From positions 10,970 through 74,969 of the forward strand of contig JAWCLH010000013.1 in the NCBI GenBank assembly GCA_038851035.1: DNA of 64,000 bases, written 5' to 3'. The DNA comes from Thermoplasmata archaeon. GTDB taxonomy: Archaea > Thermoplasmatota > DTKX01 > VGTL01. Under the pieces are notes generated by a model. The model saw only the letters and a list, made by a program, of their open reading frames with translations, did not search any database and was not told the DNA's origin. Below are positions 8,124 to 57,193 of the stretch, piece after piece; the first letter of the stretch is position 1, and every line of letters starts with the position of its first letter. Made by a program: the position numbers and the translations under genes.

Positions 8124-9137
8124 TTACCTCACCCTCGCCTCCACGACCGCCACGCAGAGCTCCAGCCTCGTCACCGCCTTGAGCTCCAGTCTCACCCAGC
8201 CGTCGCCCGTCTCGATGGAGTAATCGGCACCCATCGTGAGGTTCGTCACGGGGCGGGAGAGGGTCTCATTGAAGTACCGGGCCCACGCGCCTGGGGAAGT
8301 TGTGGTCAGGTTAACGCTTATATTCTTTCCCAGAGACCATTCCGCGCCCTCGTAGACGTTCCAATCTTTCGAGACCACCCTGGTCTCGACCACGACATTC
8401 TCCGTCCCCGCGAGGCTGGTGTAGTCGCCGGTCAGAGACACGAAGAGCATCGAGGCGGAGAGGTTCCCGGCCGCGCCCCGGCTCGCGCTGAAGTGGGGCG
8501 GAGCCCTCATCGCCGCATCGCTCCCGCCCGACACGAGGACGGCCCCCTGCTCGTATATGAAGGTCTGCTGTGATACGTATGCGTTCTGGGAGAAGAATGA
8601 GACGCTCCCCCGGCTCCTTACATAAACGTCCCCGGGGTCGTCGGTGTTGTAAACCGCCAGCGAGCCGTTGAAAGGGTTGGTGACGAGTCTCCCCGCGGTC
8701 TTGGAGAAGCCGAGGAGCGCGCTTGGCTCCCTCCCGAGGGTTACCCTCGTGCTGACACTCACGGGAGTCTCCCTGAGAATCTGGGCATCTATGTTTTCCC
8801 TGAGCGCGTAGAACTGCTCCAGCGTCTCCCTCATGTGCTGGTTCTCATCTATTTCGCCCCACACCGGGACGTAGTACATTATAACGAGAGATAGGACGCT
8901 GCTGATGATCAGGAGCAGCATCACCGCGGTCACCGCGCCCGAGACCGCACGCCCGTTCCAGCGCACCCGGCCCTCCCCGCTCCGTGCTATGCCTCCACCC
9001 CCTCCTCCCCTCCCCGCCACACCTGTCCCCCCTCGAGCCCGCCCACCCTTCTCCTTTCCACGTGCTCCTCCTCGCATCCCTTGGCCCCCGCTCCCGTCGT
9101 CCTCTCCTCTTCCCGCCCTCTGCCACCTCCCTTCCAT
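8124..9137 (-). CDS. minor-pilin-like secreted protein, paralog 1 (N-terminal class III-like signal/TM anchor)
   Basis: Arg-rich N-term, then the hydrophobic helix AVSGAVTAVMLLLIISSVLSLVIMYYVPVW, then a ~260-aa domain. Clear paralog of the two upstream genes; shared motifs are YYVPVW, NID.QIL, VTLG, MYY..Q.Y.YE.GA, and a C-terminal ...AVVE... The N-terminal G/R-rich stretch may be 5'UTR rather than coding. Confidence 0.6.
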   Translation of the reverse strand: MEGRWQRAGRGEDDGSGGQGMRGGARGKEKGGRARGGTGVAGRGGGGGGIARSGEGRVRWNGRAVSGAVTAVMLLLIISSVLSLVIMYYVPVWGEIDENQHMRETLEQFYALRENIDAQILRETPVSVSTRVTLGREPSALLGFSKTAGRLVTNPFNGSLAVYNTDDPGDVYVRSRGSVSFFSQNAYVSQQTFIYEQGAVLVSGGSDAAMRAPPHFSASRGAAGNLSASMLFVSLTGDYTSLAGTENVVVETRVVSKDWNVYEGAEWSLGKNISVNLTTTSPGAWARYFNETLSRPVTNLTMGADYSIETGDGWVRLELKAVTRLELCVAVVEARVR

Positions 9138-9159
9138 TCCCTCTTCCCCTCCCGCCCCC

Positions 9160-10080
9160 TCACATCTCCAGCTGAATCTCCACGACCGCTATCCCGAGCT
9201 CCAGTTCCCTCACCTTGAAGAGCGTAACGTCCACGCCGTTGGGCCTGACGTAAACCTGATAGTCCGCCCCGGTGAGGCCCGTCTCGGGCCTGCCAAGGGT
9301 TGTGTTGAAGAAGTCCGCCCACACGGAAGGGAAGGCGGTAGTGATGTTCAGCCCCAGATTCCTCCCTGCCTCCCAGTCGCCGCCGGCGTAGGAGGTCTTG
9401 TCAAATATGCTTAAGGTGCTCTTCACCCTCATGTCTCCAGAGCCCGAGCGGGTGGCGGGTACACCGGTCAGGGATATCAGGGTGACGCTCGCGCTCAGGT
9501 TCCCGTCGGGCTCCCTGCGCAGGTCGAAGTGCGGCGAGGCCTTCATCACCGCTCTCCCGCCCTGCTCGACGATTATCGCTCCGTTCTCGTAGTGGTAGCT
9601 CTGATCTGGATAGTACATGTTCTGGGGCTGAAAGCCCATCCTCCCTCTCGTCAGACCGAACGTCTCGTTCGGGTCTGTGGCGCTTCCCAGCCTGTACTCC
9701 CCGTCTTCTGGGCTTAGGGAGAGGCTCCCCACGGTCCGGGCGAGGCCGAAGACCGGACCGCCCTCGTCCCCGAGCGTGACCCTGTTGGTCAGTGTCGAGC
9801 TCCTGCCCGCGAGAATCTGGAGATCTATATTCTCCTTGAGCTGAATCATCTGGGACTGAATTCTCTTCATCTGGCGCGCCTCGGCGTCCTTGGTCCATAT
9901 CGGAACGTATATTGCCATGAACATCGAGAGCGCTCCTGCGGCCACGAGGAGTATCAGTAGGGTCACCACGACGCCCGAGGCGCCCCGCCTCTCGCGCCTC
10001 CAGCGGTATCTGAAGGGCCTCTTTGGCGATTCGACGCGCCCGGCGCCCTCGCCTCTCCGAGATGGACGGGGGTGCCTCAT
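9160..10080 (-). CDS. minor-pilin-like secreted protein, paralog 2
   Basis: RRG|ASGVVVTLLILLVAAGALSMFMAIYVPIW N-terminal anchor; homologous to the flanking paralogs; ATGA overlap with upstream paralog 3. Confidence 0.6.
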   Translation of the reverse strand: MRHPRPSRRGEGAGRVESPKRPFRYRWRRERRGASGVVVTLLILLVAAGALSMFMAIYVPIWTKDAEARQMKRIQSQMIQLKENIDLQILAGRSSTLTNRVTLGDEGGPVFGLARTVGSLSLSPEDGEYRLGSATDPNETFGLTRGRMGFQPQNMYYPDQSYHYENGAIIVEQGGRAVMKASPHFDLRREPDGNLSASVTLISLTGVPATRSGSGDMRVKSTLSIFDKTSYAGGDWEAGRNLGLNITTAFPSVWADFFNTTLGRPETGLTGADYQVYVRPNGVDVTLFKVRELELGIAVVEIQLEM

Positions 10081-10979
10081 CTGCTCACCTTCACCTCCAC
10101 GACCGCGAACCTGATGGTCAGGGAGACAATGCCCCTTGCATCCATTCTGAAACCCTCCGGGGTCTGGCTGAGAGACACCTCAGAGCCGGTCAGGTTGGCG
10201 GCCGCGGCCTGCTCCTGAATCGATGCGTTGAGCCACCTGAGCCATCCGTCCGCGTGCCTGGTTGTGGCGTTTAAGGTCACGTTCCTTTCTCCGGGGAAGG
10301 GAATCAGGGTCTCTTCATAATGCAGAACGCGCGTCTCCACGCCCGCGCTCCCGGCCCCCGTCACGGAGACCCCCTCGCCGAAAAGGGCGTATAGGGGTAT
10401 GGTGAGCGTCAGGCTGCCCCAGCGGTCCCTCTTGAACTCTGGCGCCGGGCCCTCCCTGACTGTGGAGTGGCCCTCCTGATGCACCAGCACAGCTCCTCCC
10501 TCGTAGACATACTCTTGCTGCGGGTGGTACATGTTCCGAGAGCGGAAAATCAAGGACCCGCGCGAGAGCGCGAAGAGCTCGTCTGGGCTGTCGGTGTCGC
10601 AGACCTCGAACAGGCTCGCGTTGGCGTCAAAGGATAGCGTCCCGCTAGAAGGCTCGCCCTGAATTCCGAGGAAGGACGTGGTGGTGCCAGAGCTGAGTGC
10701 GATATGGAAGTATAGGCTGCCCGCGGTCTCTCCCTGCGCGAGCTGGTCCTCGACGCCGTCGCGTAGGGCGAAAAACTGGTTCGCAACGCGGCTCATATGG
10801 GCCGCCTCCGCGTCCTTCGACCAGACGGGAACGTAGTACAGAGCCACGGCCGTCAGGATGGTTGTGATAATGATGACGAAGAGTACCGCCGTCACCGCGC
10901 CCGCGACGCCGCTCCGCCGCCCCTGCCACCGTCTCCACGTGCCAGTCGACCTGCGCCTCTTAGTCCTCATCCTTACCAT
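10077..10979 (-). CDS. minor-pilin-like secreted protein, paralog 3
   Basis: RRSGVAGAVTAVLFVIIITTILTAVALYYVPVW N-terminal anchor; homologous to paralogs 1 and 2; overlaps the 3' end of giant gene 1 by 20 nt. Confidence 0.6.
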   Translation of the reverse strand: MVRMRTKRRRSTGTWRRWQGRRSGVAGAVTAVLFVIIITTILTAVALYYVPVWSKDAEAAHMSRVANQFFALRDGVEDQLAQGETAGSLYFHIALSSGTTTSFLGIQGEPSSGTLSFDANASLFEVCDTDSPDELFALSRGSLIFRSRNMYHPQQEYVYEGGAVLVHQEGHSTVREGPAPEFKRDRWGSLTLTIPLYALFGEGVSVTGAGSAGVETRVLHYEETLIPFPGERNVTLNATTRHADGWLRWLNASIQEQAAAANLTGSEVSLSQTPEGFRMDARGIVSLTIRFAVVEVKVSR

Positions 10980-13900
10980 CTCGATTAACCGTGGGGTTCT
11001 TAAACCTATTCAACTCGGTCGCGCCCGCAATGGGTGATGCGCTGGTGGGCCTCGCGCTAGGGCCAGCGCCCCCTCCGTTGGGTCCGGTGCGCCCGTCCCC
11101 TCCCTCTTCGGCAGGCGCCGCGCTCTCTCCAGAACCGCGAATGGAGCCACCGTCCTCGGGCATACCGGTGGCCGCGGGGGCGAGGCCGTCCCCACCGCTC
11201 TCCGGTGCCCCCCCAGCGCCGCGTCCCTGCCCGGTCGTGGTGTTTCCGATTACAGTGACGTCGTCAATGAATATGCCGCCGAAGCCCGCGCCGAGGTCGT
11301 GGTAGTGGAGGGCTAGGTCGTTGCGCGTGACCACCCTGAACTTCAGCAGTATCACGGAGCCCGCCCAGCCTGAGAGGTCACAGTTGAGTCTGGTCAGGGT
11401 GCGGCTGTCGACCCAGTTGTCGCGGATGCCCACGCCGGTGTAGCTCGTCCCGTCGGGCCCCGCGGCCTCGGTGCCCGAGACGTTCCAAGCGGAGCGCGCG
11501 CCCATGTTTAGCTGCCTCCAGCTCACCCCGTTATCGCTCGAGACCTCGACCCTGAAGCCGTCTGGTGGCCTGCCCTCGGCGAACGGGATGTTGAAACGGA
11601 GCTTTGCCGCAAGCCGCGCATCGCGCGCACGGGTGAGGTCAATTGGTATCGTGACCAGAGAGTTGTCTATTCCCCCCTTCAGCGCGTCCATCCCAGGCTG
11701 GGGGTTGTGGTTCCACCAGGCATGCGTCCCGCTGAAGGCGAAAGTGCCGTCAGCATAGTCATCGCCGTAGGTCCGACCGACTTCGACGAGCTCCCACTGG
11801 TCCGTCGTCTGGCCAGTGACCGAAACCGAGTCAGAGCGCCGGACCTTCACCTCGACGTCGTCTATGACCCAACCGTATCCCGTGCCGCCGTCGCAGAATA
11901 TGTAGAGGAATCTCACCCTGACGAATTCATTGCCGACGAAAGGCGTCAGGTCCGCTTCCACGTAATCCCAGCTGAACCTGCCGGCCCCGCTGACGCCATT
12001 CCAGCACCACCTCATGTCGTTCCCAAAGTCGTCCTTCAGATGCGGCGTGCCCCACTCGGAGAGCTTCAGGTTGCTCGGGTAGGGCTGGGTGGGGGCGACG
12101 TATCTGTAGGAGAAGGGGCCGTTGGCGGTGGGGGCCGTCCCGACCATTATCACGCCGCCATTGCTCCCGACCTTCAGGTTGTACTTGTGCCAGAAGGTCA
12201 GCCGCGCGCTCGACGCGCCCTTCAGGCTGAAGGTGGCGGTGGTGAGCCATTTGTCGGAGGGCGTTTCGTCGCCGTCGTTCCAGAAGGGCTGGTCGCCCGG
12301 CTTCTGCGGGGGCGGGACCGGGGTGAGGGCCGTGATCAGAATCTCGTCTATTGACCAGCCGTCGTCGAGGTCGTTGTCGTTGTCCGACTTGAACCTGAAC
12401 CTTATTTTCATCTGGTCCGTGAGGGTGACTGCCCCTCCCTTCGAAATATCGAGCGTTATATTGACCCAGCTCGTGATGTGGGAGTTGTTCGTCCACAACT
12501 GCGTCCAGGTGGCGCCGTTGTCGTTGCTCACCTCTATGTAGGATCTGTCGTCGTTGTCGTCGACGTCGTGCCTGAGCCAGAGGAAGAGCGTCGGGGCGCT
12601 GTGGCCGGTCAGGTTCAGGGCCGGTGTGATCAGACTGTCGTCCTCCTGCTTGTCGTAGTAGTTCGAGCCGCCCGATTTGTAGCACCTGTAGGAGTTGCTC
12701 CCGGCGTACTTGAAGAAGGTATCGTTCTGCCAGACGCCGTCCCCGCCGAGGTTCGTCTTCGTCCACCCGGACAGCGCTCCCTCGAAGCCCTCCTGCAGGA
12801 GCACCACGAGGCCCCTCCCCTCATCCCCTCCGCCCCCCTCGCCTCCGGCGCCCCTCGAGAGCCAGCTTGGCTCGCCAGTCAGTAGGACGTCGTCTATTGA
12901 CCAGCCCTCCGCTGTCTCAGCCACGTCTGCCCACATCCTAAAAGCGATTTTCATCTGGGATGTTGGCTGGATGACGTTAACATCCAGGTTTGAGACCATT
13001 GTACCAATGGCATTCCTTGGATTTCCATAATATCCCAACCATAAATTATTTGCCCAGCTTCTGACACCATACCATGTGAGGCCATTGTCGTTGCTAATGA
13101 AGACGTAGCCAAGGTCAGCGTTCCAGGATGATTCCCCGCCCCAGTAATAGGTGCCCCGGAATACCGCGGGCCTGTGCCAGAAGCTCAGCCTGAGGTTCAC
13201 GTAGCCCGAGGCGTCAATGGTGGGCGACACGAGCCAGTCGTCGTCGTTGTTCCCGTACCTGCCGGTGGCGGTGTCGTAGCAGCGCCACGCGGATAGGCCA
13301 CTGTTCCGGAAGTCGCCGGTCACGTACCTCCACGTGCTCCCCGCGGGGCCGTTGTTGACGACGCTCCAGCCTCCCGCGCCCATCTCCATATTGTCGTAGA
13401 AGAGCACCACCCGTTCCCCCGCCCCACCGGGGTTCTCCGACGCCCCAGCTCCGCCCCTACCCAGTGTCTGGGCCATCTCTTCGATTTGCTTGGATATGTT
13501 TGCGAATACCCACTCCAGCTGCTCCGCGTTGGGCGCGAAGTAGTACCATCCCCCGCCCCCGCCGGTCAGATTGGCCTGCGCCGCGAGGGCTATCATGTCC
13601 GGCTGCGAGGTTCCGACGACGTCCGCACCGTAGCCGATGACGAATATCGGGACCGGCGCGGTCGTGACGGTGGCGAAGGCCGTTGCTCTGCCCGCCGGTA
13701 CACTTGGGGAATCTGAGTTGCTCTGTCCGTCTGTGAGAATCACCATACATCTTATCCTGTTAGCCGCACCATAGTCCCTGATATAAGTGAAACTAGTTGT
13801 AACAGCGTTCCAGAACGGAGTGCCACCCCCGATTCTCATCTTTGCAATGGCATCATGGAGCGCGGACTTATTACTGGTCAAGGGCTGATCTAATTGGGTG

Positions 13901-16900
13901 TAGTAGGGAATCAACGGGGGATTTGGATAGCTGTTGTACGGTCTGTAGGTCGAGAACTCCGCCACCGCGCCCCTGTCCTGCGGCCAGAGCTTGTTCACGA
14001 ACTGCATCATCGCGGTCTTAGCCCCCTCAATCCTCGCGACCGCGTCCCAGGCCATCGAGCCGGTGACATCGCAGGTCAGTATGACGTCAACCGGTGTCCT
14101 CCTCTGGGCCTTTGGCTCGTGCATGTAGTAGGCGCTGTCGCGGCTATGGAACTGGGATGTTATATTGGGCAGGCTCATATTGTCTGTAGTGTTGCGCCAC
14201 CCATTGAATTCGGACCACTCGGCCACTATGTCGGTGTAGACGTCGCCGGCGTCTATGTACTCGAGCGCCGTTTCTCCATTAAGGCGCACAATGGTCGACT
14301 CGTGCGTCCACTTGTCCGCCCCCTCCTCCATGTCGTCGTAGAAGAAGTAGCACTGGATAGTAAGGGAGGCGACGTTGTTGAACTTGAAGACCTCGCTCAG
14401 GATGCCGTCGGGGTCGACCGAGACCGATATTGTGCGGCTGCCCGCGAATATCGGTGTCCAGATGATCTCAGCCACTATCATCGAGCTCCTCTCGACGCTC
14501 ACGCTGACGGAGTTGATGACCGTGCTCCCGTCCGAGAACCGCACGACGGCGTCGCCCCGGGTCCCGCCGGGGTTCCAGATGCGCGCCTTCAGCATGTAGG
14601 ACTCGCCCATCATGGGCTTCATCTCCCTGAGAGGCTGGAGGGTTGTGTGGAATAGGTCGAGGTGGGTCACCCTGAGCTCGGTCCTTGCGTCGTACATGTT
14701 GAACCATCGAAGCACCATGTAGGCGAGCTCGGAGAGGTACTGGTTGTTTCCTTCGTAGGAGATGAAGGACGGGTCCCAGGCGGTGAAGACCGTCCTGAAG
14801 CTGAAGGTGGTGTTCTCGTACCGAATTCCGTTGAACGGTCTAGAGAGGATGATGTCGTCCACGGCGCCCTCGCCCTCATTCATCACAACCTCGAACCCGT
14901 CGACCTGCCTGATTGTCCTGCCGCCCAGCCCGCTCCCCTCCCTGAGGTCCCTCTGCAGGTCGCGGGTCACGGTGTGCCACCTTCCATCGGCGGTGCCGGC
15001 GCCAAGCCCGTGGTGCACGGGCCCTGCGCCCAAGAGGTCCGTGTCGCTGTTTGTGTAGGTCAGGGCGATGTGGGTGCCCAGCGTGTCGGTCACGTGCCAG
15101 ACGAATGTGTAGTTGATGTCGAACCTGAAGCTCCAGCTCGCAGTCAGCCTCTCCCTCTCGTTCCAAGGCAGGTCGTTCGGGTTCTGGTCGCTGCCGAAGG
15201 CGAAGTCGCCGATAATGAAGTATGTGTCCTGCGCGCTCGCCCCTGTCCTGGCGAGGCGAATCACGCTCGAGCCCCGCTGAAAATCAAAAACATTGTTTAT
15301 AGAGGCTGAGGTTAGTGGCGGCACCACCCTCGCCGCCCACCCCTCCGTGTCGCCGTCCTCTGCGTCCTCAAGAAAGACCTCGTTCGGAGAGTCCGGGGAG
15401 GGCATCGGGGACTGGTAGGTCACTCCCCGGCCGTCGATATAGGGCAGCAGCAGTCTCCCCTTGTCGGCGGAGGTCGGCTGGGCTGGGTAGCGGACTCCGT
15501 GGGCTATTGGGTCGAGGTACGCGCCCTCTATCATGCCCGGCGTCCTCGCGCTGCCCGGGTCCACGACGCTCCCGATGCGCAAGTAATCCCTGTAGAACGG
15601 TTCCGCGCCGCCGGCGTAGTTCCCGTCAGGAATCGCGCGCGGGCCAAGGAGCCAGAGATACCTGCCGTCCCCTCTTCCAAGGAAGGAGGCGAGGCTCGTC
15701 CTGTCCGTGGCGGTGAGAGCGTTCGCCTGCTCCCCGGCGACCCATATTAAGGCGTTGTAAAGCGACATCTTTGCCGGGTCCGGGCCGTCTTCGCCTACAT
15801 TCACCACGTGCAGGTCGTACTGATACCCCAGCTCGTCAAGGGCGCGGGTCACATTGGCGGTGGAGTTGTAGGAGCTCCCCCCGTTGTTGGCGCTCCCGTC
15901 GTCGTCTATAACGAGCGTGCCGTATCTCACGTATAGGAACTCACGGTTCATGCTGGCCGAGACTTTGTTGTTGTTCTCGTTTATCTCTGATATGTAGTCG
16001 TAGGGGTCCACCTTTCCTGTTATCGTATGGGCCCCGATTCTATCCGCGGTCCAGACCATCGAAATTTTTATGAAGCCGCCCCCGCCCGGGACCCTGAGGC
16101 TGGCGTTGGTCGTGTCCTGGGGAATCCATATTTCCGAGGTCGGGGGGTTGAATGTGGTCAGGGAGCCGTTCAGCTCTATCATGACCGACTTCGGAGCGAA
16201 GGTCGCGCCGTCGATGTAGAACGCGACCTGCAGCTGGGGCCGGCTGACGTCGAGGGGCTCGTCGCTCAGGCCGTTGTTGCGGAGGTAGATGGTTATGTTC
16301 ACATCCTCCATGAACGCCGGCGCGCTCTTGTCGAACTGCTGGTCGGAGACCGCCAGGTCCCTGCCCCAGCTCGCTAGACAGCCGAACCAGTTGAGCATCT
16401 CGTATGTAATCATCGCCCTTTCGTTGGCCTCGGCGACCCGAGAGAGCTCGAAGCCGAAGAAGGCGGTCTGGAACGTGTTGGCTCCGGGTGTGCCATTAGT
16501 CGTTGCATTGAATAGGAGCCCGAGAGCCCTGTAGGGGTCCCCGGCCTCCGTGAAGGCGGGAACCGCTTTGCCCGAGAGGGGCTCCATGAAGTCCGCCCTG
16601 TCTGGAAGTCCGGAGGGAAAAGGCTTGGCCACGACGAAGCTCCTGCCGCTCAGAATTCCATTGCCGAGAATCTGTTGGGGCGTGTAGCGGTCGTAGAATG
16701 TGGTCGGCGTCAGTGGCGAGACCTTCATATAATTATTGAGGAACGGGTCGCCGCGCCCCAGACTGCTCAGGACGTCCTGACCTATCAGCCACAGCTTGCC
16801 CCCGTTGTTTAAAAATGTGGCCAGGTTGCTCTTGTCGTTTGAGGTTAGGGTCCCCACGCTCTCGTAGCCCGTGAGCCATATCACGAGGTCGTAGTCCCTG

Positions 16901-24023: not shown

Positions 24024-27000
24024 TCCATCTCACCTCCCCTAGGGCGGACCAGAGCCGGGGTCGCGGGCACAGCGACCAGCCCCAAGGGCCCGAGCATCAT
24101 GCCCCGCAGGCCCGCGCCCTCCTCTCCCGATGCCGGGTCAGGGCCGGAGCTCTCGACCGGGCGGCTATCGGCCCCCTCGTCTCCATAACAGACCTTCCCC
24201 CCCGCCCCAACCTCCTCCTCAGCCTCCGCGCCGGAATGGCAAGCGCTCGTGACTGACCTCTCCACGGGTCCGGCGGCCCTCCCGCCCGTGGTCGTGTTGC
24301 CAACAACCTTGATATCGTCAATATAGACTCCTCCGAAGCCCGCGAGCGCGCTATGGTAATGGTCGGCGATGTCGGTCCTTGTGACCACCCTGAAGCGCAG
24401 AAGTATGACCGAACCTGCCCAGCCTGAGAGGTCGCAGTTCAGCCTCGACATCGTGCCGCTGGCGACCCAGTTACCGCCGAGGTCCACGCCCGTCGCGCTC
24501 GTCCCGTCCGGACCCGCGGCTTCTGTCCCGGAGACCTTCCAGCCCGAGCGGACGCCGCGGTTCAGGGCGCGCCAGGTGATCCCATTGTCGCTCGAGACCT
24601 CAACCCTCAGGCCGTCGGGTGGCCTGCCGTCAAGTGAGTTGATGTTGAACTTCAGCCTCGCGTCTAGCCGGGCGTCGAGGGCGTTCGTCAGGTCGATGGG
24701 AATTGTAGTCAGGCTGTTGTCTATGCCAGCCGCGAGATAGTCAATGCCGGGTGAAGGGCTGTGGCAGAGCCAGGCGCGCTCGCCGCTGTAGGCATCGGCG
24801 ATGTCCCCACCCCCGCCAAGAGCATCGCCCTTGCGCACCAGCTCCCACTGGTCCGGTACCGACGCGGAAACTGGCACGGCATTGGCGCGCTCCACCCTGA
24901 CCTCGATATCGTCTATCGCCCACCCCATTCCCGTCCCTCCAGTGCAGTAAAAATAAGCGAAGCGAATTCGTACAAACTGGTTTCCTATGAAAGGCGTGAG
25001 GTCAGCCTCGACGTAATCCCACGTGAATCTGCCCGAGCCGCTCACGCCATTCCAGCACCAGCGGATGTCGTTTCCGAACCCGTCTTTTAGGTGCGGTGTG
25101 CCCCACTGCGCAATCTGGAGGTTACCGGTGTAGGGCTGGGTGGGCGTGATGTAGCGGTAGGTATATGGGCCGCTCTCCGAGGCAGCGGTACCGACCATCA
25201 GGACCCCCCCGTTCGCCCCAGCTTTCAGATCGTACTTGTGCCAGAAGGTCAGTTTGGCCGAGGAGACGCCCGCTAGGCTGAACGTCTTGGTGGTCAGGTT
25301 CCTGTCGCGCGGGGTCTCGTCCCCGTTCATCCAGTATCGAATTCCCTCGCCAGCCAGAGGGACGTCGGAGGTGACCAGGACCTCGTCCACGACCCAGCCG
25401 GTGGCCACGCTGGAGCCGTCCGAAGTGAACTGGAACCTTAGCACCATCGACGACGTCGGTGTCACCGCGCCGCCCGCGGTCAGGTCGATGTAGCACTCGT
25501 ACTGCCAGTTGTTGGAGTCTTTGTTCGTGCTCCAGACCTGCGTCCAACTCGTCCCTCCGTTGTTGCTCACGTATACCCTGCACCAGTCGCCATTGTTCCC
25601 AAGGTCAGGACAAGACCAGAACGCCAGCCGCGGGTTCTGGCGGCCCGAGAGGTCGAAGACGGGCGATATGAGGCTGTTGTTGTCGTTGTTGTCGTAGTTG
25701 CCCGTGCCGGTGTTGAATGAGCGGTAGGCGAAGGAGCCGTTGTGCTTGATGCCGCTGTGGCGGACCCACTGCGAGCCCGCAGCTCCTCCGTTGACCGTGG
25801 TCCATACCGGAGTGGCGTTCTCGAAACTGTCGTAGAAGACCGTGACCTGCCCCCTCTCCAAGGCGCCCCCCTCGGGCGTGGAGCGGCCGAGGGTCTGGGC
25901 GAGCTGCTGAATCACTTGTGCTATTTGAGAGTATATCTGGAGAAGCTGGTCGCTCGTTGGGGCGTAGTAGTAGCTCCCGCCCTCTGACGCATCGGCGGCG
26001 TCCTGCAGATTGGCGGTGTTGACGTCCCCGCCAAGGCCGATTGTGAAGAGGGGCCCGTGCATCGTGGCGATGAGCGCAAGGGTGTAGTCCCTAGTGTACG
26101 GCGGGTTGTCGTAATTGAACTGCCCGTCTGTGAGAAATACCACGGCCCTCATCGCCCCCGGCCTCGAGTTCTGGATGGTGTAGTTGGTGCCCTGGGACAT
26201 CGCGGTCCAGCCCGCGGTCCATCCGCCCGCCGACAGCTCCTTGATGGTGTTGATGCAGGCGCTCTTGTTGAAGGTGAAGCCCAGGTCCATCGTCACCCCG
26301 CTCGAGAAGGACCATACCGATATTCTGTCTATTGACTCAAGCTGCGTTATGAAGAACATCGCGGCGTTCTTGGCGTCCTGAATCTTCTGGCCGCCCATCG
26401 AGCCCGAGCGGTCGATGATGATGGTGCAGTCCACAGGCCTCCTGATGTCCTGCCTCGACTCGTGCATGTAGAAGGCCCTCGGCCAGCTCCTATACACAGA
26501 GGTTATGTTGGGCAGGCTCGCGTTGTCCGTGGTATTGTACCAGCCGTCCATCTCCTGCCAGCCCTGTATTATATTCGTGTTCGCCACGCCCGGGTCGAGG
26601 TATTCGAGAGCCGACTCGCCGTTTATCCGCAGAACCGTCGCTTCGTGCCTCCAGTTCTTCGTCCCGCTCTCCAGGTCGTCGTAGAAGAAGTAGCAGTCGA
26701 GGCCGACTCCCGCCACATTGTTGAACTTCATCGTCTCGCTCACCGCGTTGTCTGGGTCAACGGTTGCGCCTATGACCCTGCTGCCTGCGAAGAGAGGCCT
26801 CCAGACGATCTCGGCCATCGCCCTCCCGTTGGCCTCGACCGACACCGTGACCGAGTCGATGACTGTGGTCCCGTCGGTGAAGCGAACGACTGCATCGCCC
26901 CTCGTTCCCCCTAGGTTCCAGACCATCGCCTTGAGGACGTAGGATTCGCCTAGCATCGGCTTCATCTCCCTCAGCGGGACCATGCCCGAGTAGTAGAGGT

Positions 27001-30000
27001 CCATGGACGTGACCCTGAGCTCCGTCCGGCTCTCGTAGAAGTGGAACCAGCGCATCACTAGGTAGGTCAGCTCTGAGAGATAGTTGTCGTTTCCATCGTA
27101 CGATATGAATGAGGCGTCCCAGGCGGTCCAGACGCTCCTGAAGTTGTGGGTTGCATTGTCATGCCTAACCGAGTTGAATGGCCGGCAGAGCGAGATTCCG
27201 TCCACCCTCCCCTCGCCCTCGCCAATCCATACCTCGAACCCGTCCACGCTCTTGATTCCGAGCCCCATGTTGCCGGTACCGTGCCTCAGGTCCTCCGTCA
27301 GGTCTCTGGTGACGGAGTGCCAGGAACCGTCCATCGTCCAGCTTCCGAGTCCGAAGACCGGGTTGGGGCCGGGGATGTTGGCGTCCGAGGTGGAGTAGAA
27401 CAGCGTCCGATGAGCGTTGGTGGTGTCTGTCACGTGCCATCCAAAGCTCGCCTCAACTTGGAAGGAGAAGCTCCAGCGCGCTGTTAGTCGGCTGCGCTCG
27501 TCCCAGAAAAGGTCGTTCGGGTTCTGGTTGTTCGTGGCGCTGAAGTCGCCGATAATGAAGACGGTGCTTTGGACAGACGCACCGGTCCTATTGAGCAGGA
27601 TGACCCTAGAGCCCCTCGAGGTGTCCTGAACGTTATAGATGCTAGCGGTCGTGCCCGGCGGAACCACCCTAGCGAACCAGCGCGCCGTGGACCCGTCCTC
27701 CGCGTCGCAGAGGTTTCTCTCGCTCGATGCCGATGCGAGGGGTGACTGGAAGAGAATTCCGTGGCCGTCGATGTACGGCACCAGGAGCCCGCCCTTGTCC
27801 GTGAATGTGGGCTGGGCGGGGTAGGAGATTCCATGGGTCACTGGGTCCATATAGACCCCCTCAATCGTGGAGGGCGTGTGGCTGGCCGGGTCGGAGACCA
27901 ACGCCACCCTCAAGAAGTCCCTACAGAACGGGTCGGAGCCGCTACTGTAGTCCCCGGGCAGAACCGCCTTCTGGCCGATGAGCCAAAGGCCCCGGCCGTC
28001 CCCCTTCTTCAGGAAATCCTGCAAATTGCTCCGGTCATTCGCCGTCAGGGCGTCCGGGCTCTCACCGGCGCACCAGATAATCGCATTGTACTGGCTCATC
28101 TTGTTCAGGTCTGGGCCGTCCGCGCCAGTTGGGACGACGCAAACATCGAAATCGTAGCCCAGCGCATTGACCGCACGGCTGACATTTTGTGTGGCGTTGT
28201 ATAGCGTTCCACCGTTGTTGGCGCTACCATCGTCGTCCACTAGGAGCGTTCCGTACCTGACGAAAATCACCTCATTTGCAACGGCGCTAGCGACCTTATT
28301 ATTGAGCTCGTTTATCTCTTCGATATAGTCGTAGGGGTCGACCTTGACCGTAACCGTGTGGAGCCCCACCTGGTCGGCCACCCAGACCATCGACACCTTC
28401 AGGTAGCCGCCCCTGCCCGGGACCACGAGCGAGGGGTGGGGTGTGTTCTGAGGAATCCAGAGCTCCGAAGTTGCGAGGTCGAACTCCCAGAGCTGGGTGC
28501 TATTTTCAACCGTGACGCGCGCGGGGTCGAAGGCCTTTCCGTCGATATAGAATCCGAGTTGGAGAATGGGGTTGAGGAATGAGGGCGGCTCGTCGCTCAG
28601 GCCGTTGTTGCGGACGAGGACCGTGATGTTGACCTGGTCCATGAATGTGGGCGTGGTGATGTTGAACTCCTGCTCTGATATCGAGAGGTCACGGCCCCAG
28701 CGCGCGGAGCAGTTGAACCACTCGAGCATCGTGTAGGTCAGGATGGAGCGCTCGCTGGGGCGCTTCATACGAGTCAGCTCGAATGAGAAGAAAGCGGAGG
28801 TGTAGGTCTCGACCCCGGGGGTCATGTTCGTGGTTGCGTTGAAGAGAATTCCGACGGGGCGGTTGGGCGCCACCGCTTCAACTAGAGCAGAGGCTGCGAA
28901 CGGCCTTGGCTCGACGAAGTCGCCCTTATTCAGGAGGCCCGGCGGGTAGGGGGTGGAGATGTTGAAGGAGGCGCCTGGTAGAATTCCGGTCCCAACCACC
29001 GGGTCTGGAGTGCCGGCGTCTAGGTAGGATGGGAGGGTTGCGATGGGGTCTACGTTCAGGATGCTGACCAAAAACGCGTTGGATAGGCCGAGGTCGCTCA
29101 GAATTCCCTGACCGATTAGCCAGAGCTTCCCGTGGCCGTTGATGAGATACTTTATCAGCTCCATCTGGTCATTGGGCGTGAGGGTCGTGGTGTCTTCGAA
29201 GCCCGTCATCCATATCACTAGGTCGAAATCCCGCATCGGGTGCTCCCCGGAATCGTATCTCGGTCCATCGCCACCGGCTACGACGTGGGTCGTGTAGGTC
29301 GCACCCACGCTCTCCAGAGCGGCGCTCATGGGCGTCACCACGTCCCTCACGCTCCCCTCCGCGGCGCGGTCGTCGTCGACGAGTAGAATCGTCGGCATTA
29401 CCTCCAGCTCCCTAGACGCCTCCCCGCCCGTCCCGTTGGGCTCGGTGGCGTTGACGATTATCGTGTGGAGGCCCCCGGAGCCGGTCTTCCAGAACGCAGT
29501 TGATATCGTCTCGCCGCCGACGGGAATGCCGACGCCGGTGAGCTCACCTATCAGGCGGGAGTAGCTGCCGTCGTAGAAGCGCACCGTGGCGTAGGCGGGC
29601 ACGCCGCCCTGGTTCACAATCTTCGAGCTGATAATAACCGTTGAGCCGTGGACGGGGTGCTCGTCAGAGAACTCGATCGACTTGACCACGAGATAGGGCC
29701 TGGTGGGGCTGGTGGCGATGACCGGGTAGCCCACGCGGTATTGAACGACGGCGTTGTTGTTCGAGAAACGGGACTCGTTGTGGAACGGGATGATTTTGAC
29801 GGTGAGGGAGTGCATGCCCCAGCTTCCGTTCTGAATTCGGTAGCTGGCGGAAACGCGGGTTGAGTTCCCGGCTCCGAGCCAGGGGATTGTGATGTTGGCG
29901 AAGTCGATAGAGAGGCGGTCTAGGCTTGAGTAGTCGCTCATCCTCACCCGCACGCCCGGGACTCCAGAGCCGCCGTAGTTGTGGATTGTGGCGTTGATGA

Positions 30001-30583
30001 CGAGCGTCTCGTTGGTCAGGGGGGTGTTCAGGTTCTCGTCCACTGGGGCCCCGTGCCTCAAAATCTCTATGTCCCCAGGACCGAGTCCTACGTCTGGCAG
30101 TAGGGCAGATATGGCCCCTCCTTGGAGAATTCTGTCGAATATGATGGCCGGGGCTTTTATATCAACTATCTGGAGCCGGAGGGTGTCGTCAGGATCTGCG
30201 GTGAATGGGTGGGACCAGCTCTCGCCCGTCTCCAATCTGCCGTCGGATGGGTGGCCGTCGCTGACGCTCAGGGAGCTCGAGAGGGTGTCATTGAGGAAAA
30301 TATTGAACCGGGTGCTGGAGTTGTCGAGAGGGTCGCCTCCGAGGTGCTTGACGAGGATCTCAGCGCCGTCGTAGGTTGCCTCGAGCGAGGCCATCGTCTT
30401 TTCCGGCGGCTGCTCCACAGTGCCCATCTGGAGGGCGAGGGCGGATATCATGACCACTGCGATGCTGACGAGGAGGATATCGCCCACTATCTCAGACACA
30501 CCCGCCGCTTCTCGGTTGAGCGCCGGTCTTGCCGAACGTACCGCGCGCAAGTCATCCCCTCCAACCATAGCGCTATCAGTCAT
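24020..30583 (-). CDS. giant (2187 aa) type-IV-pilin-like adhesin with VWA domain (paralog A, first gene of operon)
   Basis: N-terminus REAAGVSEIVGDILLVSIAVVMISALALQM (class III signal). VWA MIDAS motif VDCTIIIDRSGSMGGQ. CARDB/MAM-like repeats. C-terminal ...VYIDDIKVVGNTTTG followed by an acidic G/A-rich tail that includes a hydrophobic stretch MMLGPLGLVAVPATPALV. Confidence 0.8.
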   Translation of the reverse strand: MTDSAMVGGDDLRAVRSARPALNREAAGVSEIVGDILLVSIAVVMISALALQMGTVEQPPEKTMASLEATYDGAEILVKHLGGDPLDNSSTRFNIFLNDTLSSSLSVSDGHPSDGRLETGESWSHPFTADPDDTLRLQIVDIKAPAIIFDRILQGGAISALLPDVGLGPGDIEILRHGAPVDENLNTPLTNETLVINATIHNYGGSGVPGVRVRMSDYSSLDRLSIDFANITIPWLGAGNSTRVSASYRIQNGSWGMHSLTVKIIPFHNESRFSNNNAVVQYRVGYPVIATSPTRPYLVVKSIEFSDEHPVHGSTVIISSKIVNQGGVPAYATVRFYDGSYSRLIGELTGVGIPVGGETISTAFWKTGSGGLHTIIVNATEPNGTGGEASRELEVMPTILLVDDDRAAEGSVRDVVTPMSAALESVGATYTTHVVAGGDGPRYDSGEHPMRDFDLVIWMTGFEDTTTLTPNDQMELIKYLINGHGKLWLIGQGILSDLGLSNAFLVSILNVDPIATLPSYLDAGTPDPVVGTGILPGASFNISTPYPPGLLNKGDFVEPRPFAASALVEAVAPNRPVGILFNATTNMTPGVETYTSAFFSFELTRMKRPSERSILTYTMLEWFNCSARWGRDLSISEQEFNITTPTFMDQVNITVLVRNNGLSDEPPSFLNPILQLGFYIDGKAFDPARVTVENSTQLWEFDLATSELWIPQNTPHPSLVVPGRGGYLKVSMVWVADQVGLHTVTVKVDPYDYIEEINELNNKVASAVANEVIFVRYGTLLVDDDGSANNGGTLYNATQNVSRAVNALGYDFDVCVVPTGADGPDLNKMSQYNAIIWCAGESPDALTANDRSNLQDFLKKGDGRGLWLIGQKAVLPGDYSSGSDPFCRDFLRVALVSDPASHTPSTIEGVYMDPVTHGISYPAQPTFTDKGGLLVPYIDGHGILFQSPLASASSERNLCDAEDGSTARWFARVVPPGTTASIYNVQDTSRGSRVILLNRTGASVQSTVFIIGDFSATNNQNPNDLFWDERSRLTARWSFSFQVEASFGWHVTDTTNAHRTLFYSTSDANIPGPNPVFGLGSWTMDGSWHSVTRDLTEDLRHGTGNMGLGIKSVDGFEVWIGEGEGRVDGISLCRPFNSVRHDNATHNFRSVWTAWDASFISYDGNDNYLSELTYLVMRWFHFYESRTELRVTSMDLYYSGMVPLREMKPMLGESYVLKAMVWNLGGTRGDAVVRFTDGTTVIDSVTVSVEANGRAMAEIVWRPLFAGSRVIGATVDPDNAVSETMKFNNVAGVGLDCYFFYDDLESGTKNWRHEATVLRINGESALEYLDPGVANTNIIQGWQEMDGWYNTTDNASLPNITSVYRSWPRAFYMHESRQDIRRPVDCTIIIDRSGSMGGQKIQDAKNAAMFFITQLESIDRISVWSFSSGVTMDLGFTFNKSACINTIKELSAGGWTAGWTAMSQGTNYTIQNSRPGAMRAVVFLTDGQFNYDNPPYTRDYTLALIATMHGPLFTIGLGGDVNTANLQDAADASEGGSYYYAPTSDQLLQIYSQIAQVIQQLAQTLGRSTPEGGALERGQVTVFYDSFENATPVWTTVNGGAAGSQWVRHSGIKHNGSFAYRSFNTGTGNYDNNDNNSLISPVFDLSGRQNPRLAFWSCPDLGNNGDWCRVYVSNNGGTSWTQVWSTNKDSNNWQYECYIDLTAGGAVTPTSSMVLRFQFTSDGSSVATGWVVDEVLVTSDVPLAGEGIRYWMNGDETPRDRNLTTKTFSLAGVSSAKLTFWHKYDLKAGANGGVLMVGTAASESGPYTYRYITPTQPYTGNLQIAQWGTPHLKDGFGNDIRWCWNGVSGSGRFTWDYVEADLTPFIGNQFVRIRFAYFYCTGGTGMGWAIDDIEVRVERANAVPVSASVPDQWELVRKGDALGGGGDIADAYSGERAWLCHSPSPGIDYLAAGIDNSLTTIPIDLTNALDARLDARLKFNINSLDGRPPDGLRVEVSSDNGITWRALNRGVRSGWKVSGTEAAGPDGTSATGVDLGGNWVASGTMSRLNCDLSGWAGSVILLRFRVVTRTDIADHYHSALAGFGGVYIDDIKVVGNTTTGGRAAGPVERSVTSACHSGAEAEEEVGAGGKVCYGDEGADSRPVESSGPDPASGEEGAGLRGMMLGPLGLVAVPATPALVRPRGGEME

Positions 30584-30660
30584 CTTTGGGGGAGTATAAC
30601 TACATTGGCCGAATTTATTCTGAATAAATGGTTAAATAGCGAGGAAGCGATTAGAGCCCC
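30584..30660. promoter_or_regulatory. 77-bp divergent promoter region with palindromic TATA-like element
   Basis: Only AT-rich patch between giant-operon start (30583, minus) and regulator start (30661, plus). Perfect 7-1-7 palindrome TTTATTC-T-GAATAAA (30614-30628). A TTAAATA box sits ~26 nt upstream of the plus gene and an AATAAATT box ~27 nt upstream of the minus gene, so both transcripts are probably leaderless. Confidence 0.5.
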
Positions 30661-41308: not shown

Positions 41309-41533
41309 CCGCCCCCGGGTTTTGCCCCCCGGGACAACTGCAAGTCCAGCTCTCCTAGACCGATTTCCGGAGCGCGGATGGTCAGCGATGAAAGCACAGA
41401 CCCGTGCCCCGACAATCGGGAATTCTTCATAGATAACTCGATAACGATGTATAATGAATTATTAAAACCTTTTGAATCGGCACGACACACCTGCTTGCCC
41501 TAATGGTAATCGGATATCTACCCTGCCGGCGAT

Positions 41534-42589: not shown

Positions 42590-42592
42590 GTA

Positions 42593-43710: not shown

Positions 43711-43760
43711 GGAGCTGCTCTCCCGGCCCCCGGGCCGGCTTTCCGAGGGCCGCGCTCCCG

Positions 43761-44906: not shown

Positions 44907-45084
44907 GCGATATTGCGGTTCCAGCGCCGCGATGCGGTCGACTGCCAGGCATCGAGGAGATGGGTTGTCCCGCCCGGTCCAAGGGCGAGCGCGGATATAG
45001 CGGGCCTGCGGCACGCACCACCCGCAACCCCCTCCAGCGCCTCCCGGAGGGCACGGGCGGACGCGGAGCCCGCGGGGAGGTTGG

Positions 45085-49656: not shown

Positions 49657-53711
<4,055 letters not shown>

Positions 53712-53721
53712 CGCACCACCC

Positions 53722-57183: not shown

Positions 57184-57193
57184 CGCACCACCT

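What the first reader, a model, noticed from the sequence alone, without database searches (positions are those of the whole stretch)
8124..30583. 22.5-kb operon of three giant pilin-headed VWA adhesins plus three minor-pilin-like proteins
Six co-oriented genes are joined by ATGA (4-nt) or 20-nt overlaps and share a single upstream promoter region. The three giant proteins (2187, 1924, 2430 aa) each start with a textbook archaeal type-IV-pilin class III signal (RG|xSEV(I/L)GDILLV + hydrophobic helix), so they would be processed by a prepilin peptidase and could insert into a pilus-like filament. Instead of a small pilin globular domain, each carries more than 1800 aa of CARDB-like, GATase1-like (LVDDD...GGKLWLIG), VWA (intact DxSxS MIDAS) and MAM-like beta-sandwich domains. 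The three ~300-aa paralogs with N-terminal anchors look like minor (tip/priming) pilins. No PilB/FlaI ATPase, PilC/FlaJ platform or PibD peptidase is in the window. Giant pilin-anchored VWA adhesins as an operon with dedicated minor pilins are not a described system; this is a candidate adhesive filament or 'tethered mega-adhesin' apparatus.
Basis: partly seen in the sequence, partly recalled or inferred. Interest (0 to 1): 0.9.

Follow-up and report, generated by a model that had tools for sequence, protein, structure and literature searches.

The report
Giant archaeal pilin-fused adhesin operon
An uncultivated Thermoplasmata archaeon carries an operon of three 1,900-2,400-residue surface proteins that each start like a type IV pilin and carry binding domains, plus three smaller pilin-shaped partners; this looks like an unusually large archaeal version of the "modular pilin" adhesins known from bacteria.

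Summary
Six co-oriented minus-strand genes (8124-30583) encode three paralogous giants (2187, 1924, 2430 aa) and three paralogous ~300-aa proteins.

The small proteins are DUF7289-like. A confident AlphaFold model shows a 59-residue N-terminal helix followed by a beta domain that has no solved relative.

The main new evidence is genomic context. In a sister clade, giants and DUF7289 genes sit directly beside a PilB3-like ATPase and PilC/T2SSF genes. DUF7289 also sits beside PilB/PilC in Methanohalophilus and other Thermoplasmata. The window's own clade lacks adjacent machinery, so it would act in trans; that step is inferred.

At least 75 clusters at 50% identity share the N-terminal architecture (median length 1942 aa). 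I found no paper describing them.

Closest known: bacterial modular pilins (S. sanguinis PilB, with a vWA module; largest reported 860 aa), TadG, and PilY1 with minor pilins. Verdict: a new archaeal, giant variant of a known kind.

The parts
30584..30660 (-). Upstream intergenic region with AT-rich TATA-like elements (ATTTAA / TTTATT / AATAAATT), 25-56 nt before the G1 ATG. Putative archaeal promoter of the operon, shared with the divergent STAND gene.
   Evidence: Read directly from the sequence. Promoter function is inferred.
24020..30583 (-). G1, a 2187-aa giant modular pilin-like adhesin. Order of parts: leader, class-III-type helix, pilin beta domain, 2 CARDB, GATase1-like, CARDB, GATase1-like, beta-sandwich, CARDB, VWA, 3 MAM-like domains.
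30296..30502 (-). G1 Pilin_N match (aa 28-96): AAG|VSEIVGDILLV..., a helix at aa 26-55 and the first strands of the beta domain.
   Evidence: Pfam 40.8 bits against GA 25.2. AlphaFold model has a helix at 26-55 and a sandwich at 65-154.
28718..29389 (-). G1 GATase1-like module 1 (aa 399-622). Motifs LLVDDD and GKLWLIGQ; no nucleophile Cys.
27584..28249 (-). G1 GATase1-like module 2 (aa about 779-1000).
   Evidence: Repeats the LLVDDD / LWLIGQ motifs. Weak ThuA hit, E = 0.041. Assigned by similarity to module 1; not modelled.
25928..26428 (-). G1 VWA domain (aa 1386-1552) with a canonical MIDAS: DRSGS, then T, then D.
   Evidence: Pfam VWA 57.3 bits. PDB sequence hits 8s05 (E 7e-9) and ITIH4. 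Alignment.
24305..25837 (-). G1 choice-of-anchor-J / InhA-like MAM beta-sandwich region (aa 1583-2093; about three domains).
18249..24023 (-). G2, a 1924-aa giant paralog. Pilin_N at aa 19-88 (nt 23760-23969); VWA at aa 1178-1297 (nt 20133-20492) with MIDAS DTSNS.
10960..18252 (-). G3, a 2430-aa giant paralog. Pilin_N at aa 31-96 (nt 17965-18162); VWA at aa 1389-1545 (nt 13618-14088) with variant MIDAS DVTGS; one extra MAM-like domain.
10077..10979 (-). S1, a 300-aa DUF7289-like protein. Arg-rich leader, then RSG|VAGAVTAVLFVIII helix.
   Evidence: Pfam DUF7289 22.6 bits (below GA 27). Paralog of S3. Alignments.
9160..10080 (-). S2, a 306-aa DUF7289-like protein. Leader, then RRG|ASGVVVTLLILL helix.
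   Evidence: Pfam DUF7289 22.2 bits (below GA). 38% identical to S3.
8124..9137 (-). S3, a DUF7289 protein: 337 aa from ATG 9137, or 280 aa from GTG 8966. Motif GRA|VSGAVTAVMLLLII. Modelled as a 59-residue helix plus a beta domain.
   Evidence: Pfam DUF7289 36.2 bits, above GA 27. AlphaFold pLDDT 88.5. Alternative start.
30661..33739 (+). Divergent neighbours, possibly regulatory. Membership in the system is unproven. They are an HTH + NACHT/AAA_16 STAND NTPase (30661-33228) and a Ras/Roc-type small GTPase (33188-33739).
   Evidence: The same pair lies upstream of the giants in L003.

Best explanation
The six genes form one operon encoding substrates of a type IV filament (archaeal T4P/Tad-like) machine. 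The proposed mechanism has six steps.

1. The operon is transcribed from the AT-rich region upstream of G1 and translated with coupling through ATGA overlaps and Shine-Dalgarno-like motifs (the sequence features are shown; their function is inferred).
2. Each product enters the membrane through its single N-terminal hydrophobic helix, and an archaeal prepilin peptidase removes the basic leader after the conserved [G/A] (motif shown; cleavage inferred).
3. A PilB3-type ATPase with a PilC/TadC platform extracts the helices from the membrane and packs them into a helical core. This machinery is encoded elsewhere in this genome but immediately beside the homologous genes in a sister clade.
4. Each giant carries about 1,850-2,350 residues of ectodomain, so it cannot be a repeating shaft subunit. 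The giants are most likely placed at the tip, or on a short stub, as in bacterial modular pilins. The three DUF7289 pilin-shaped proteins would act as the initiating or adaptor minor subunits.
5. The displayed head is a glycosylated stalk of CARDB/Ig and non-catalytic GATase1-like modules. It presents a metal-dependent VWA (MIDAS) site and MAM / choice-of-anchor-J sandwiches that bind proteins or glycans on particles or other cells.
6. The VWA-MAM segment is the least conserved part among orthologs, so it is probably the specificity cassette.

The product is therefore a pilus-presented, or pseudopilus-anchored, mega-adhesin set with three non-redundant specificities.
For: - Pilin_N is above the Pfam threshold in all three giants.
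- The [KR/x][GA]|(V/A)(S/A)E(V/I)(I/L)G motif followed by a hydrophobic helix is conserved in about 50 homologs of 1,360-2,510 aa.
- Each giant has only one TM-like segment and no C-terminal anchor.
- The AlphaFold model of G1 1-632 shows leader, 30-residue helix, beta-sandwich, 2 Ig domains and a GATase1-like module.
- Genomic linkage in the sister clade: L014 carries giant, giant, DUF7289-like (549 aa), DUF7289, PilB3-like ATPase and 2 T2SSF genes in one direction. L001 is the same as far as PilB.
- PilB homologs share contigs with a giant (20,754 bp) or with DUF7289 genes (17,625, 8,731 and 22,595 bp).
- DUF7289 lies beside PilB/PilC without giants in Thermoplasmata locus L009 and in Methanohalophilus locus L004.
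- Giants and DUF7289-like genes co-occur in three divergent clades: the window, L014 and L019.
- The three orthogroups G1, G2 and G3, their gene order and the flanking synteny are conserved in L003 and L015.
- N-glycosylation sequons are enriched 1.7-1.9x in the giants and 3-4x in the small proteins.
- The MIDAS motif is intact in G1 and G2.
- The VWA/MAM region is the least conserved: 0.22-0.38 against 0.5-0.8 elsewhere. G1-type orthologs P0008-P0017 lack a VWA hit.
- Precedents: S. sanguinis PilB is a vWA modular pilin and tip adhesin (PMC8179133). Haloferax pilB3C3 assembles pilins that are encoded in trans (PMC7002104, PMC4858521).
Against: - No PilB, PilC or prepilin peptidase is found in the 64-kb window, nor within 10 kb of the operon in the two closest relatives.
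- None of the 120 best PilB homologs lies on a window-clade contig.
- No small major pilin gene is present in the operon or the window, so the identity of the shaft, or whether a shaft exists, is unknown.
- G1 and S1 lack the usual charged residue at position -2.
- S1 and S2 score below the DUF7289 threshold.
- The DUF7289 beta domain has no significant solved structural relative.
- Class III signals also occur on non-filament archaeal surface proteins, such as the Sulfolobus sugar-binding proteins (PMC4858521).
- Ligands, cleavage and assembly are all untested.
Confidence: 0.6

Rival explanations
1. The giants are a surface coat or membrane-anchored glycocalyx, not a filament. They stay anchored in the membrane of a (probably wall-less) Thermoplasmata cell by their N-terminal helix, forming an S-layer substitute or a bindosome-like array. 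The class III signal serves only for targeting or processing.
For: No assembly genes lie near the operon in this clade. No shaft pilin gene is present. The giants are very large and sequon-rich. Archaeal class III signals are known on non-pilus proteins, and S-layer-like proteins accompany T4P loci (PMC4858521).
Against: The sister-clade loci place the same architecture in one gene string with PilB3-like and PilC genes. The giants are always accompanied by pilin-shaped DUF7289 proteins, a family that otherwise travels with PilB/PilC. The pilin-type N-terminal motif is conserved across the whole family.
Confidence: 0.2
2. The system is a substrate-capture or degradation apparatus rather than an attachment adhesin. 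Its binding modules (VWA, MAM / choice-of-anchor-J as found in InhA/M36 peptidases, non-catalytic GATase1/ThuA-like modules) would trap detrital proteins or polysaccharides for extracellular hydrolases. This resembles the Sulfolobus bindosome idea scaled up.
For: Choice-of-anchor-J / MAM domains match those of secreted M36/InhA peptidases. A subtilase gene is a conserved neighbour. In other clades the giants are followed by M14/C11 peptidase genes. The GATase1-like fold is shared with ThuA-like proteins and with non-catalytic domains of glycoside hydrolases.
Against: No catalytic domain was detected in any of the six proteins. The GATase1-like modules lack the nucleophile. This reading differs from the main explanation only in the nature of the ligand, not in the mechanism of display.
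Confidence: 0.12
3. DUF7289 proteins are not pilins but membrane-anchored assembly or stator components, analogous to FlaF/FlaG of the archaellum or TadG of Tad systems. They would stay at the base, and the giants would be the only filament subunits.
For: DUF7289 is the only conserved partner of PilB/PilC in L004 and L009, which fits a machine component. The family has no significant structural match to pilins. Its N-terminus resembles those of uncleaved FlaF/FlaG (from my own knowledge, not tested here).
Against: A conserved [GA]|(V/I)S motif precedes the helix, with a basic leader, as in class III signals. There are three paralogs alongside three giants here, and two alongside two in L014. 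That pattern suggests partner-specific subunits rather than a single base component.
Confidence: 0.25

Closest known systems
Bacterial modular type IV pilins, e.g. Streptococcus sanguinis PilB (pilin module + vWA) and PilC (pilin + lectin) (Raynaud et al. 2021, PMC8179133; PMC9934059)
   Same: An N-terminal class III signal / pilin module is fused to an adhesive module, including a vWA domain with a MIDAS site. The predicted location is tip-only for steric reasons. They are encoded together with other minor pilins.
   Different: Here the pilin head is the archaeal Pilin_N type, not IPR012902. The proteins are 1,924-2,430 aa, against about 860 aa for the largest bacterial case reported in that survey. 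They carry more than 10 extra domains. Three paralogs lie in tandem with three DUF7289 partners. No experimental data exist.
TadG and TadE/TadF of bacterial Tad (T4c) pili
   Same: A pilin-like N-terminal hydrophobic segment is joined to a VWA domain (TadG), and pseudopilins are encoded with the machine. Archaeal PilB/PilC systems are the evolutionary relatives of Tad (PMC4858521, PMC10191384).
   Different: TadG is a few hundred residues long and is thought to be a membrane sub-complex or anchor component. No sequence relationship to it was tested or found here.
PilY1/PilC with the minor-pilin priming complex (T4aP), the GspH-K tip complex (T2SS), and the CofB tip trimer (T4bP)
   Same: A large adhesin, with a vWA domain in P. 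aeruginosa PilY1, is presented at the filament tip by a small set of minor pilins that initiate assembly. CofB forms a trimeric cap (PMC10191384).
   Different: PilY1 is not itself a pilin, whereas here the adhesin and the pilin module are one polypeptide. The 3+3 stoichiometry is only a guess.
Large DUF2341 'PilY-like' adhesins and S-layer-like proteins predicted in archaeal T4P loci (Makarova et al. 2016, PMC4858521)
   Same: Large secreted proteins are encoded in archaeal T4P neighbourhoods and predicted to be pilus-associated adhesins.
   Different: The domain content differs: no DUF2341 here, and CARDB / GATase1-like / VWA / MAM instead. That census does not mention Thermoplasmata giants, CARDB or DUF7289.
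Sulfolobus bindosome (class III signal sugar-binding proteins assembled by BasEF)
   Same: Functional non-pilin ectodomains carry class III signals and depend on a PilB/PilC-type machine for surface placement.
   Different: Bindosome substrates are ordinary-sized ABC solute-binding proteins. No transporter is linked to this operon.

Membership tests
Archaeal type IV pilin (Pfam Pilin_N PF07790 / class III signal peptide proteins) - the three giants | Match to the Pilin_N model above the curated threshold | tested here: met
   40.8, 26.3 and 28.3 bits against GA 25.2.
Archaeal type IV pilin - the three giants | Short charged leader ending in G/A, followed by a hydrophobic helix of 20 residues or more at the extreme N-terminus, and no other TM segment | tested here: met
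   Leaders are 20-29 aa. Cleavage contexts are AAG|VSE, RG|VSE and RG|AAE. The single hydrophobic segment lies at aa 26-57, 19-50 and 29-58. The model shows a helix at 26-55. G1 lacks the usual K/R at position -2.
Archaeal type IV pilin - the three giants | Cleavage by a prepilin peptidase (PibD/EppA/FlaK, A24 family) and incorporation into a filament | not testable with these tools
   No peptidase gene in the window. Needs N-terminal proteomics or filament preparations.
Archaeal type IV pilin - the three giants | Genetic association with a PilB/PilC-type assembly ATPase and platform | tested here: inconclusive
   Met in the sister clade (L014, L001; contig matches). Not seen within the window or within 10 kb in the closest relatives.
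Modular pilins in the sense of Raynaud et al. 2021 | A pilin module followed by one or more domains that are not specific to T4P biology | tested here: met
   Pilin_N followed by CARDB, GATase1-like, VWA and MAM-like domains. The original definition used the bacterial IPR012902 motif, which does not apply to archaea.
VWA domain with a functional MIDAS | DxSxS ... T ... D metal-coordinating residues | tested here: met
   G1 DRSGS/T/D and G2 DTSNS/T/D are canonical. G3 is DVTGS/T/D, a variant with one S replaced by T. Metal binding was not tested.
Class I glutamine amidotransferase (enzymatic GATase1) | GATase1 alpha/beta fold | tested here: met
Class I glutamine amidotransferase (enzymatic GATase1) | Nucleophile Cys in the G-x-C-x-G elbow, with the His/Glu triad | tested here: not met
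   The elbow reads G-K-L-W-L-I-G-Q / G-L-W-L-I-G-Q with no Cys. It is therefore fold-only, like the ThuA-like, GIFT and GH42 trimerisation domains.
DUF7289 (PF23960) - the three small proteins | Match above the curated threshold | tested here: inconclusive
   S3 scores 36.2 bits, above GA 27. S1 (22.6) and S2 (22.2) fall below it, but both are clear paralogs of S3 (E 3e-41 and 2e-64).
Type IV (minor) pilin - the three small proteins | Class III-like N-terminus plus an extended N-terminal alpha-helix packed on a beta-sheet globular domain | tested here: met
   A conserved [GA]|(V/I)S(G/N)xVT motif. The model has a helix at 6-64 followed by a beta domain, pLDDT 88.5.
Type IV (minor) pilin - the three small proteins | Detectable sequence or structural homology to known pilins | tested here: inconclusive

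The most novel reading that the evidence does not exclude
The three giants and three DUF7289 proteins assemble into a defined hetero-oligomeric cap, for example one helical turn of three giant pilins primed by three adaptor pilins, on an archaeal type IV filament. The head alone would be about 700 kDa (6,541 residues in total). These would be by far the largest pilin subunits known. They would define a Thermoplasmatota-wide system that displays exchangeable VWA/MAM specificity cassettes and may be the main cell-surface interaction organelle of these uncultivated, often wall-less archaea.
Probability: 0.3. Interest if true: 0.78.

Novelty: new variant of a known kind. Interest (0 to 1): 0.62.

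Why it matters
Type IV filaments are the one pilus type shared by bacteria and archaea, and how they gain new functions is an active question. Modular pilins have so far been described and surveyed only in bacteria, where the largest reported is about 860 residues.

This locus, and a family of at least 75 clusters at 50% identity (median length about 1,940 aa), suggests that archaea use the same trick at two to three times that size. They do so in conserved multi-paralog operons, with a dedicated family of pilin-shaped partners (DUF7289) that otherwise accompanies PilB/PilC.

The finding gives a concrete, testable function to DUF7289. It raises a steric and mechanistic question: how can a machine extrude a 250-kDa pilin? 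It also offers candidates for how abundant uncultivated Thermoplasmatota attach to particles, prey or partners.

Tried and rejected
1. Exact-sequence lookup of S3 in the assembly index found nothing on record. The window itself is not indexed; the nearest relatives are 97-98% identical.
2. A haloarchaeal origin was rejected. D+E is only about 11%, rpoB is unsplit, and all homologs come from Thermoplasmata/Thermoplasmatota MAGs.
3. The tiny 45-48-aa ORFs in L001, L014 and L019 were checked as possible Flp-like major pilins. They are hydrophilic and not pilins.
4. A motif scan of all six frames for further class-III-like N-termini found only the operon's own genes.
5. I looked for a C-terminal anchor or PGF-CTERM-like sorting signal on the giants. 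No second hydrophobic segment was found.
8. I tried to place PilB on window-clade contigs by matching contig lengths among PilB homologs. There were no matches among the best 120 of 7,999 hits, so the result is inconclusive.
9. Literature searches for DUF7289, PF07790, Thermoplasmat* with type IV pili and CARDB, and giant archaeal pilin adhesins found no description of this family.
10. The single genome-contig scan, using the DUF7289 alignment, returned only distant (25-28% identical) relatives. The window's species is therefore not among those representatives, or was missed.


Full report
**1. What is in the sequence**

The G1/G2, G2/G3 and S1/S2 junctions are ATGA overlaps, and G3/S1 overlaps by 20 nt. 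S2/S3 does not overlap: there is a 22-nt gap. The gap would be 193 nt if S3 starts at GTG 8966, as in the 280-aa NCBI homolog P0059. However, homolog P0060 also has a long Gly/Arg-rich leader, so the start stays ambiguous. GGAGGTGA-like motifs precede G2, G3 and S2.

The 77 nt upstream of G1 contain AT-rich TATA-like elements. The stretch after the S3 stop is AT-rich, with TATA-like elements ahead of the next gene, an Lrp/AsnC regulator. One transcription unit is plausible but not shown.

The giants are paralogs (39-49% identity, collinear), and so are the small proteins (28-38%).

**2. Domain content of the giants**

All three giants match Pfam Pilin_N above the gathering score (40.8, 26.3 and 28.3 bits against 25.2). 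They also match CARDB (81-89 bits) and VWA (57.3, 24.1 and 23.8 bits against 23.8). They match InhA-like MAM and Reelin subrepeat-B in Pfam, and choice-of-anchor-J in NCBIfam.

Each giant has a single hydrophobic segment, at the N-terminus, and no C-terminal anchor.

The MIDAS motif is canonical in G1 (DRSGS...T...D) and G2 (DTSNS...T...D). In G3 it is DVTGS, so 'intact DxSxS in each' is two-thirds right.

The LVDDD...LWLIGQ module occurs twice per protein. Pfam sees only a weak ThuA hit (E 0.041).

An AlphaFold model of G1 1-632 was built from 16 aligned family members and reached pLDDT 79.6. It shows:
- a disordered leader (1-25);
- a 30-residue helix (26-55);
- a beta-sandwich (65-154);
- two Ig/CARDB domains;
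- an alpha/beta module (399-622).

N-glycosylation sequons are 1.7-1.9 times more frequent than expected in the giants and 3-4 times in the small proteins. That fits archaeal surface glycoproteins.

**3. The small proteins**

S3 matches DUF7289 above threshold (36.2 bits against 27). S1 and S2 fall just below it but are clear paralogs.

Across 31 family members the N-terminus reads basic leader, then [G/A], then (V/I)S(G/N)xVTxxMxLxI, followed by an invariant P-x-W.

The AlphaFold model (pLDDT 88.5, pTM 0.81) has a 59-residue N-terminal helix followed by an all-beta domain. This is the general layout of a type IV pilin.

**4. Relatives and genomic context**

Homologs of G1 are all from uncultivated Thermoplasmata/Thermoplasmatota. 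They are named only 'CARDB domain-containing protein', 'type IV pilin' or 'FlaG/FlaF family flagellin'. The pilin-type N-terminal motif is conserved in about 50 of them.

Among P0001-P0024, three orthogroups correspond to G1, G2 and G3. In L003 and L015 the gene order G1-G2-G3-S1-S2-S3 and the flanking genes are conserved. The flanks are an HTH-STAND NTPase with a Ras-like GTPase upstream, and Lrp/AsnC, DHH, TraB, M50, WD40 and FTCD downstream. The triplication is therefore old and each copy is maintained. The genes are not decaying. The only split gene seen is in L002, compared with L001.

In a sister clade the link to a type IV filament machine is physical. L014 reads giant (2047 aa, Pilin_N/CARDB/VWA), giant (2011 aa), DUF7289-like (549 aa), DUF7289 (327 aa), PilB3-like ATPase (T2SSE with PilB3_N/C) and two T2SSF genes, all in one direction. 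L001 is the same as far as PilB.

DUF7289 also lies next to PilB/PilC without any giant, in a Thermoplasmata MAG (L009) and in cultured Methanohalophilus (L004). It therefore behaves as a regular companion of this machine type.

A third clade (L019) has three giants followed by two DUF7289-like genes. Two further clades have pairs of giants preceded by a KaiC-like ATPase. Makarova et al. list that type of ATPase among T4P regulators (PMC4858521).

A profile of the N-terminal 618 positions, searched against 1.84 billion cluster representatives, gives 1,024 hits at E<=1e-30. Of the best 150, 75 carry the whole pilin + 2 CARDB + GATase1-like arrangement at their own N-terminus. Their median length is 1,942 aa.

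**5. What is missing**

No PilB, PilC or A24 peptidase occurs among the 33 window ORFs scanned outside the operon (31 of 180 aa or more plus two shorter). No further class-III-like N-terminus exists in any frame, so there is no candidate shaft pilin here.

In the two closest relatives nothing of the kind lies within 10 kb. None of the 120 best PilB homologs sits on a window-clade contig. Only 120 of 7,999 hits are listed, so this does not exclude one.

Assembly in trans has a precedent. Haloferax pilB3C3 is not clustered with its PilA substrates (PMC7002104, PMC4858521).

**6. Most likely mechanism**

The operon supplies six substrates of a PilB3/PilC-type machine. Each product would be inserted by its N-terminal helix and trimmed by a prepilin peptidase, and its helix would then be packed into a helical core.

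A subunit with about 1,850-2,350 ectodomain residues cannot repeat along a shaft. By the same steric argument made for S. sanguinis PilB (PMC8179133), the giants should sit at the tip or on a short stub. The DUF7289 proteins would be the initiating or adaptor subunits, because type IV filaments grow from tip to base, starting from a minor-pilin complex (PMC10191384).

The head presents VWA/MIDAS and MAM-like binding modules on a stalk of CARDB and GATase1-like domains.

Among G1 orthologs the VWA-MAM stretch (aa 1400-1800) is by far the least conserved: 0.22-0.38 identity to G1 per column, against 0.5-0.8 elsewhere. Orthologs P0008-P0017 have no VWA hit at all. That is what a swappable specificity cassette would look like.

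*Shown:* domain architecture, N-terminal motifs, paralogy and orthology, and linkage to PilB/PilC in relatives.
*Inferred:* cleavage, assembly, tip position, ligands and the role of DUF7289.

**7. Rival explanations**

(a) The giants are a membrane-anchored coat or bindosome-like array with no filament. The absence of machinery and of a shaft pilin nearby favours this. The sister-clade loci and the constant DUF7289 partnership argue against it.

(b) The system captures substrates for extracellular hydrolases. Supporting points are the MAM / choice-of-anchor-J kinship with M36/InhA peptidases, a conserved subtilase neighbour, and M14/C11 peptidase genes after the giants in other clades. This differs from the main explanation in ligand, not in mode of display.

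(c) DUF7289 is a base or stator-like machine part (compare FlaF/FlaG and TadG) rather than a pilin.

**8. Comparison with what is known**

In mechanism, the closest systems are:
- bacterial modular pilins (PilB-vWA and PilC-lectin of S. sanguinis), of which more than 1,200 proteins were surveyed and the largest was 860 aa, in bacteria only (PMC8179133);
- TadG (a pilin-like segment plus VWA);
- PilY1 with its minor pilins;
- the CofB tip trimer.

Makarova et al. (2016) predicted large adhesins (DUF2341) in some archaeal T4P loci. Their paper does not mention CARDB, Thermoplasmata giants or DUF7289. No paper in the library mentions DUF7289.

The principle is therefore known. The archaeal pilin head, the two- to three-fold larger size, the conserved multi-paralog operon and the DUF7289 partnership are not described.

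**9. Verdict**

This is a new, archaeal and giant variant of modular type IV pilin adhesins. It belongs to a sizeable uncharacterised family. Interest is moderate to high.

Noticed in passing
window 30661-33228 (+) and 33188-33739 (+): Divergently transcribed from the operon are two genes: an 855-aa HTH (Crp/MarR-like) + NACHT/AAA_16 STAND NTPase, and a 183-aa Ras/Roc-type small GTPase that overlaps its end. The same pair sits upstream of the giants in L003, so it may regulate the operon. Archaeal Ras-like GTPases paired with STAND proteins are little studied.
   Followed up: partly
window 49657-57369 (-): RNA polymerase genes: an unsplit rpoB (1215 aa), rpoA' (930 aa) and rpoA'' (419 aa). The unsplit B subunit, together with D+E of only about 11% in the six operon proteins, argues against a haloarchaeon and fits the Thermoplasmata assignment of all homologs.
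   Followed up: partly
window 40721-46029: A glycan-biosynthesis cluster: hexapeptide acyltransferase, NAD-dependent epimerase/dehydratase, DegT/DnrJ aminotransferase, and GT4 and GT2 glycosyltransferases. Nearby is a 563-aa protein with no family match (38738-40429). The cluster could supply N-glycans for the sequon-rich giants.
   Followed up: no
window 8967-9137 (-): The S3 start is ambiguous. The ATG at 9137 adds a 57-residue Gly/Arg-rich leader, while the GTG at 8966 gives the 280-aa form annotated in the 98%-identical NCBI homolog P0059. Another homolog (P0060) also has a long basic leader. S1 and S2 have Arg-rich leaders of 24-33 residues, which is long for class III signals.
   Followed up: partly
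G1 aa 1400-1800 (window about 25184-26383, -) compared with orthologs P0002, P0008, P0009, P0011, P0013, P0014, P0016 and P0017: The VWA + first MAM-like segment is the least conserved part of G1 orthologs (0.22-0.38, against 0.5-0.8 elsewhere). It is replaced by non-VWA sequence in P0008-P0017. This looks like an exchangeable cassette inside a conserved scaffold.
   Followed up: partly
L017 642-2405 and L018 7666-9788: In two other clades, pairs of giant pilin-headed proteins are preceded by a KaiC-like ATPase (PF06745) and by a coiled-coil protein with repeated C-terminal zinc-ribbon motifs. They are followed by M14 (and C11) peptidase-domain proteins.
   Followed up: no
L002 9598-15655 compared with L001 16192-22209: The second giant is one 2005-aa gene in L001. 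In the near-identical contig L002 it is split into a 158-aa Pilin_N ORF and an 1839-aa ORF. This is either a frameshift or assembly error, or a natural truncation.
   Followed up: no
window 34317-35405 (-): A subtilase (Peptidase_S8, 362 aa) lies next to the STAND/Ras pair. An S8 peptidase occupies the same relative position in L003.
   Followed up: no
L004 6277-10855 (Methanohalophilus sp. RSK) and L009 9947-16222: A DUF7289 gene is the only pilin-shaped gene adjacent to PilB3-like ATPase and PilC genes in these loci, which have no giant adhesins. L009 carries two ATPases and a split PilC. This suggests DUF7289 is a core companion of this class of archaeal type IV filament machines.
   Followed up: partly
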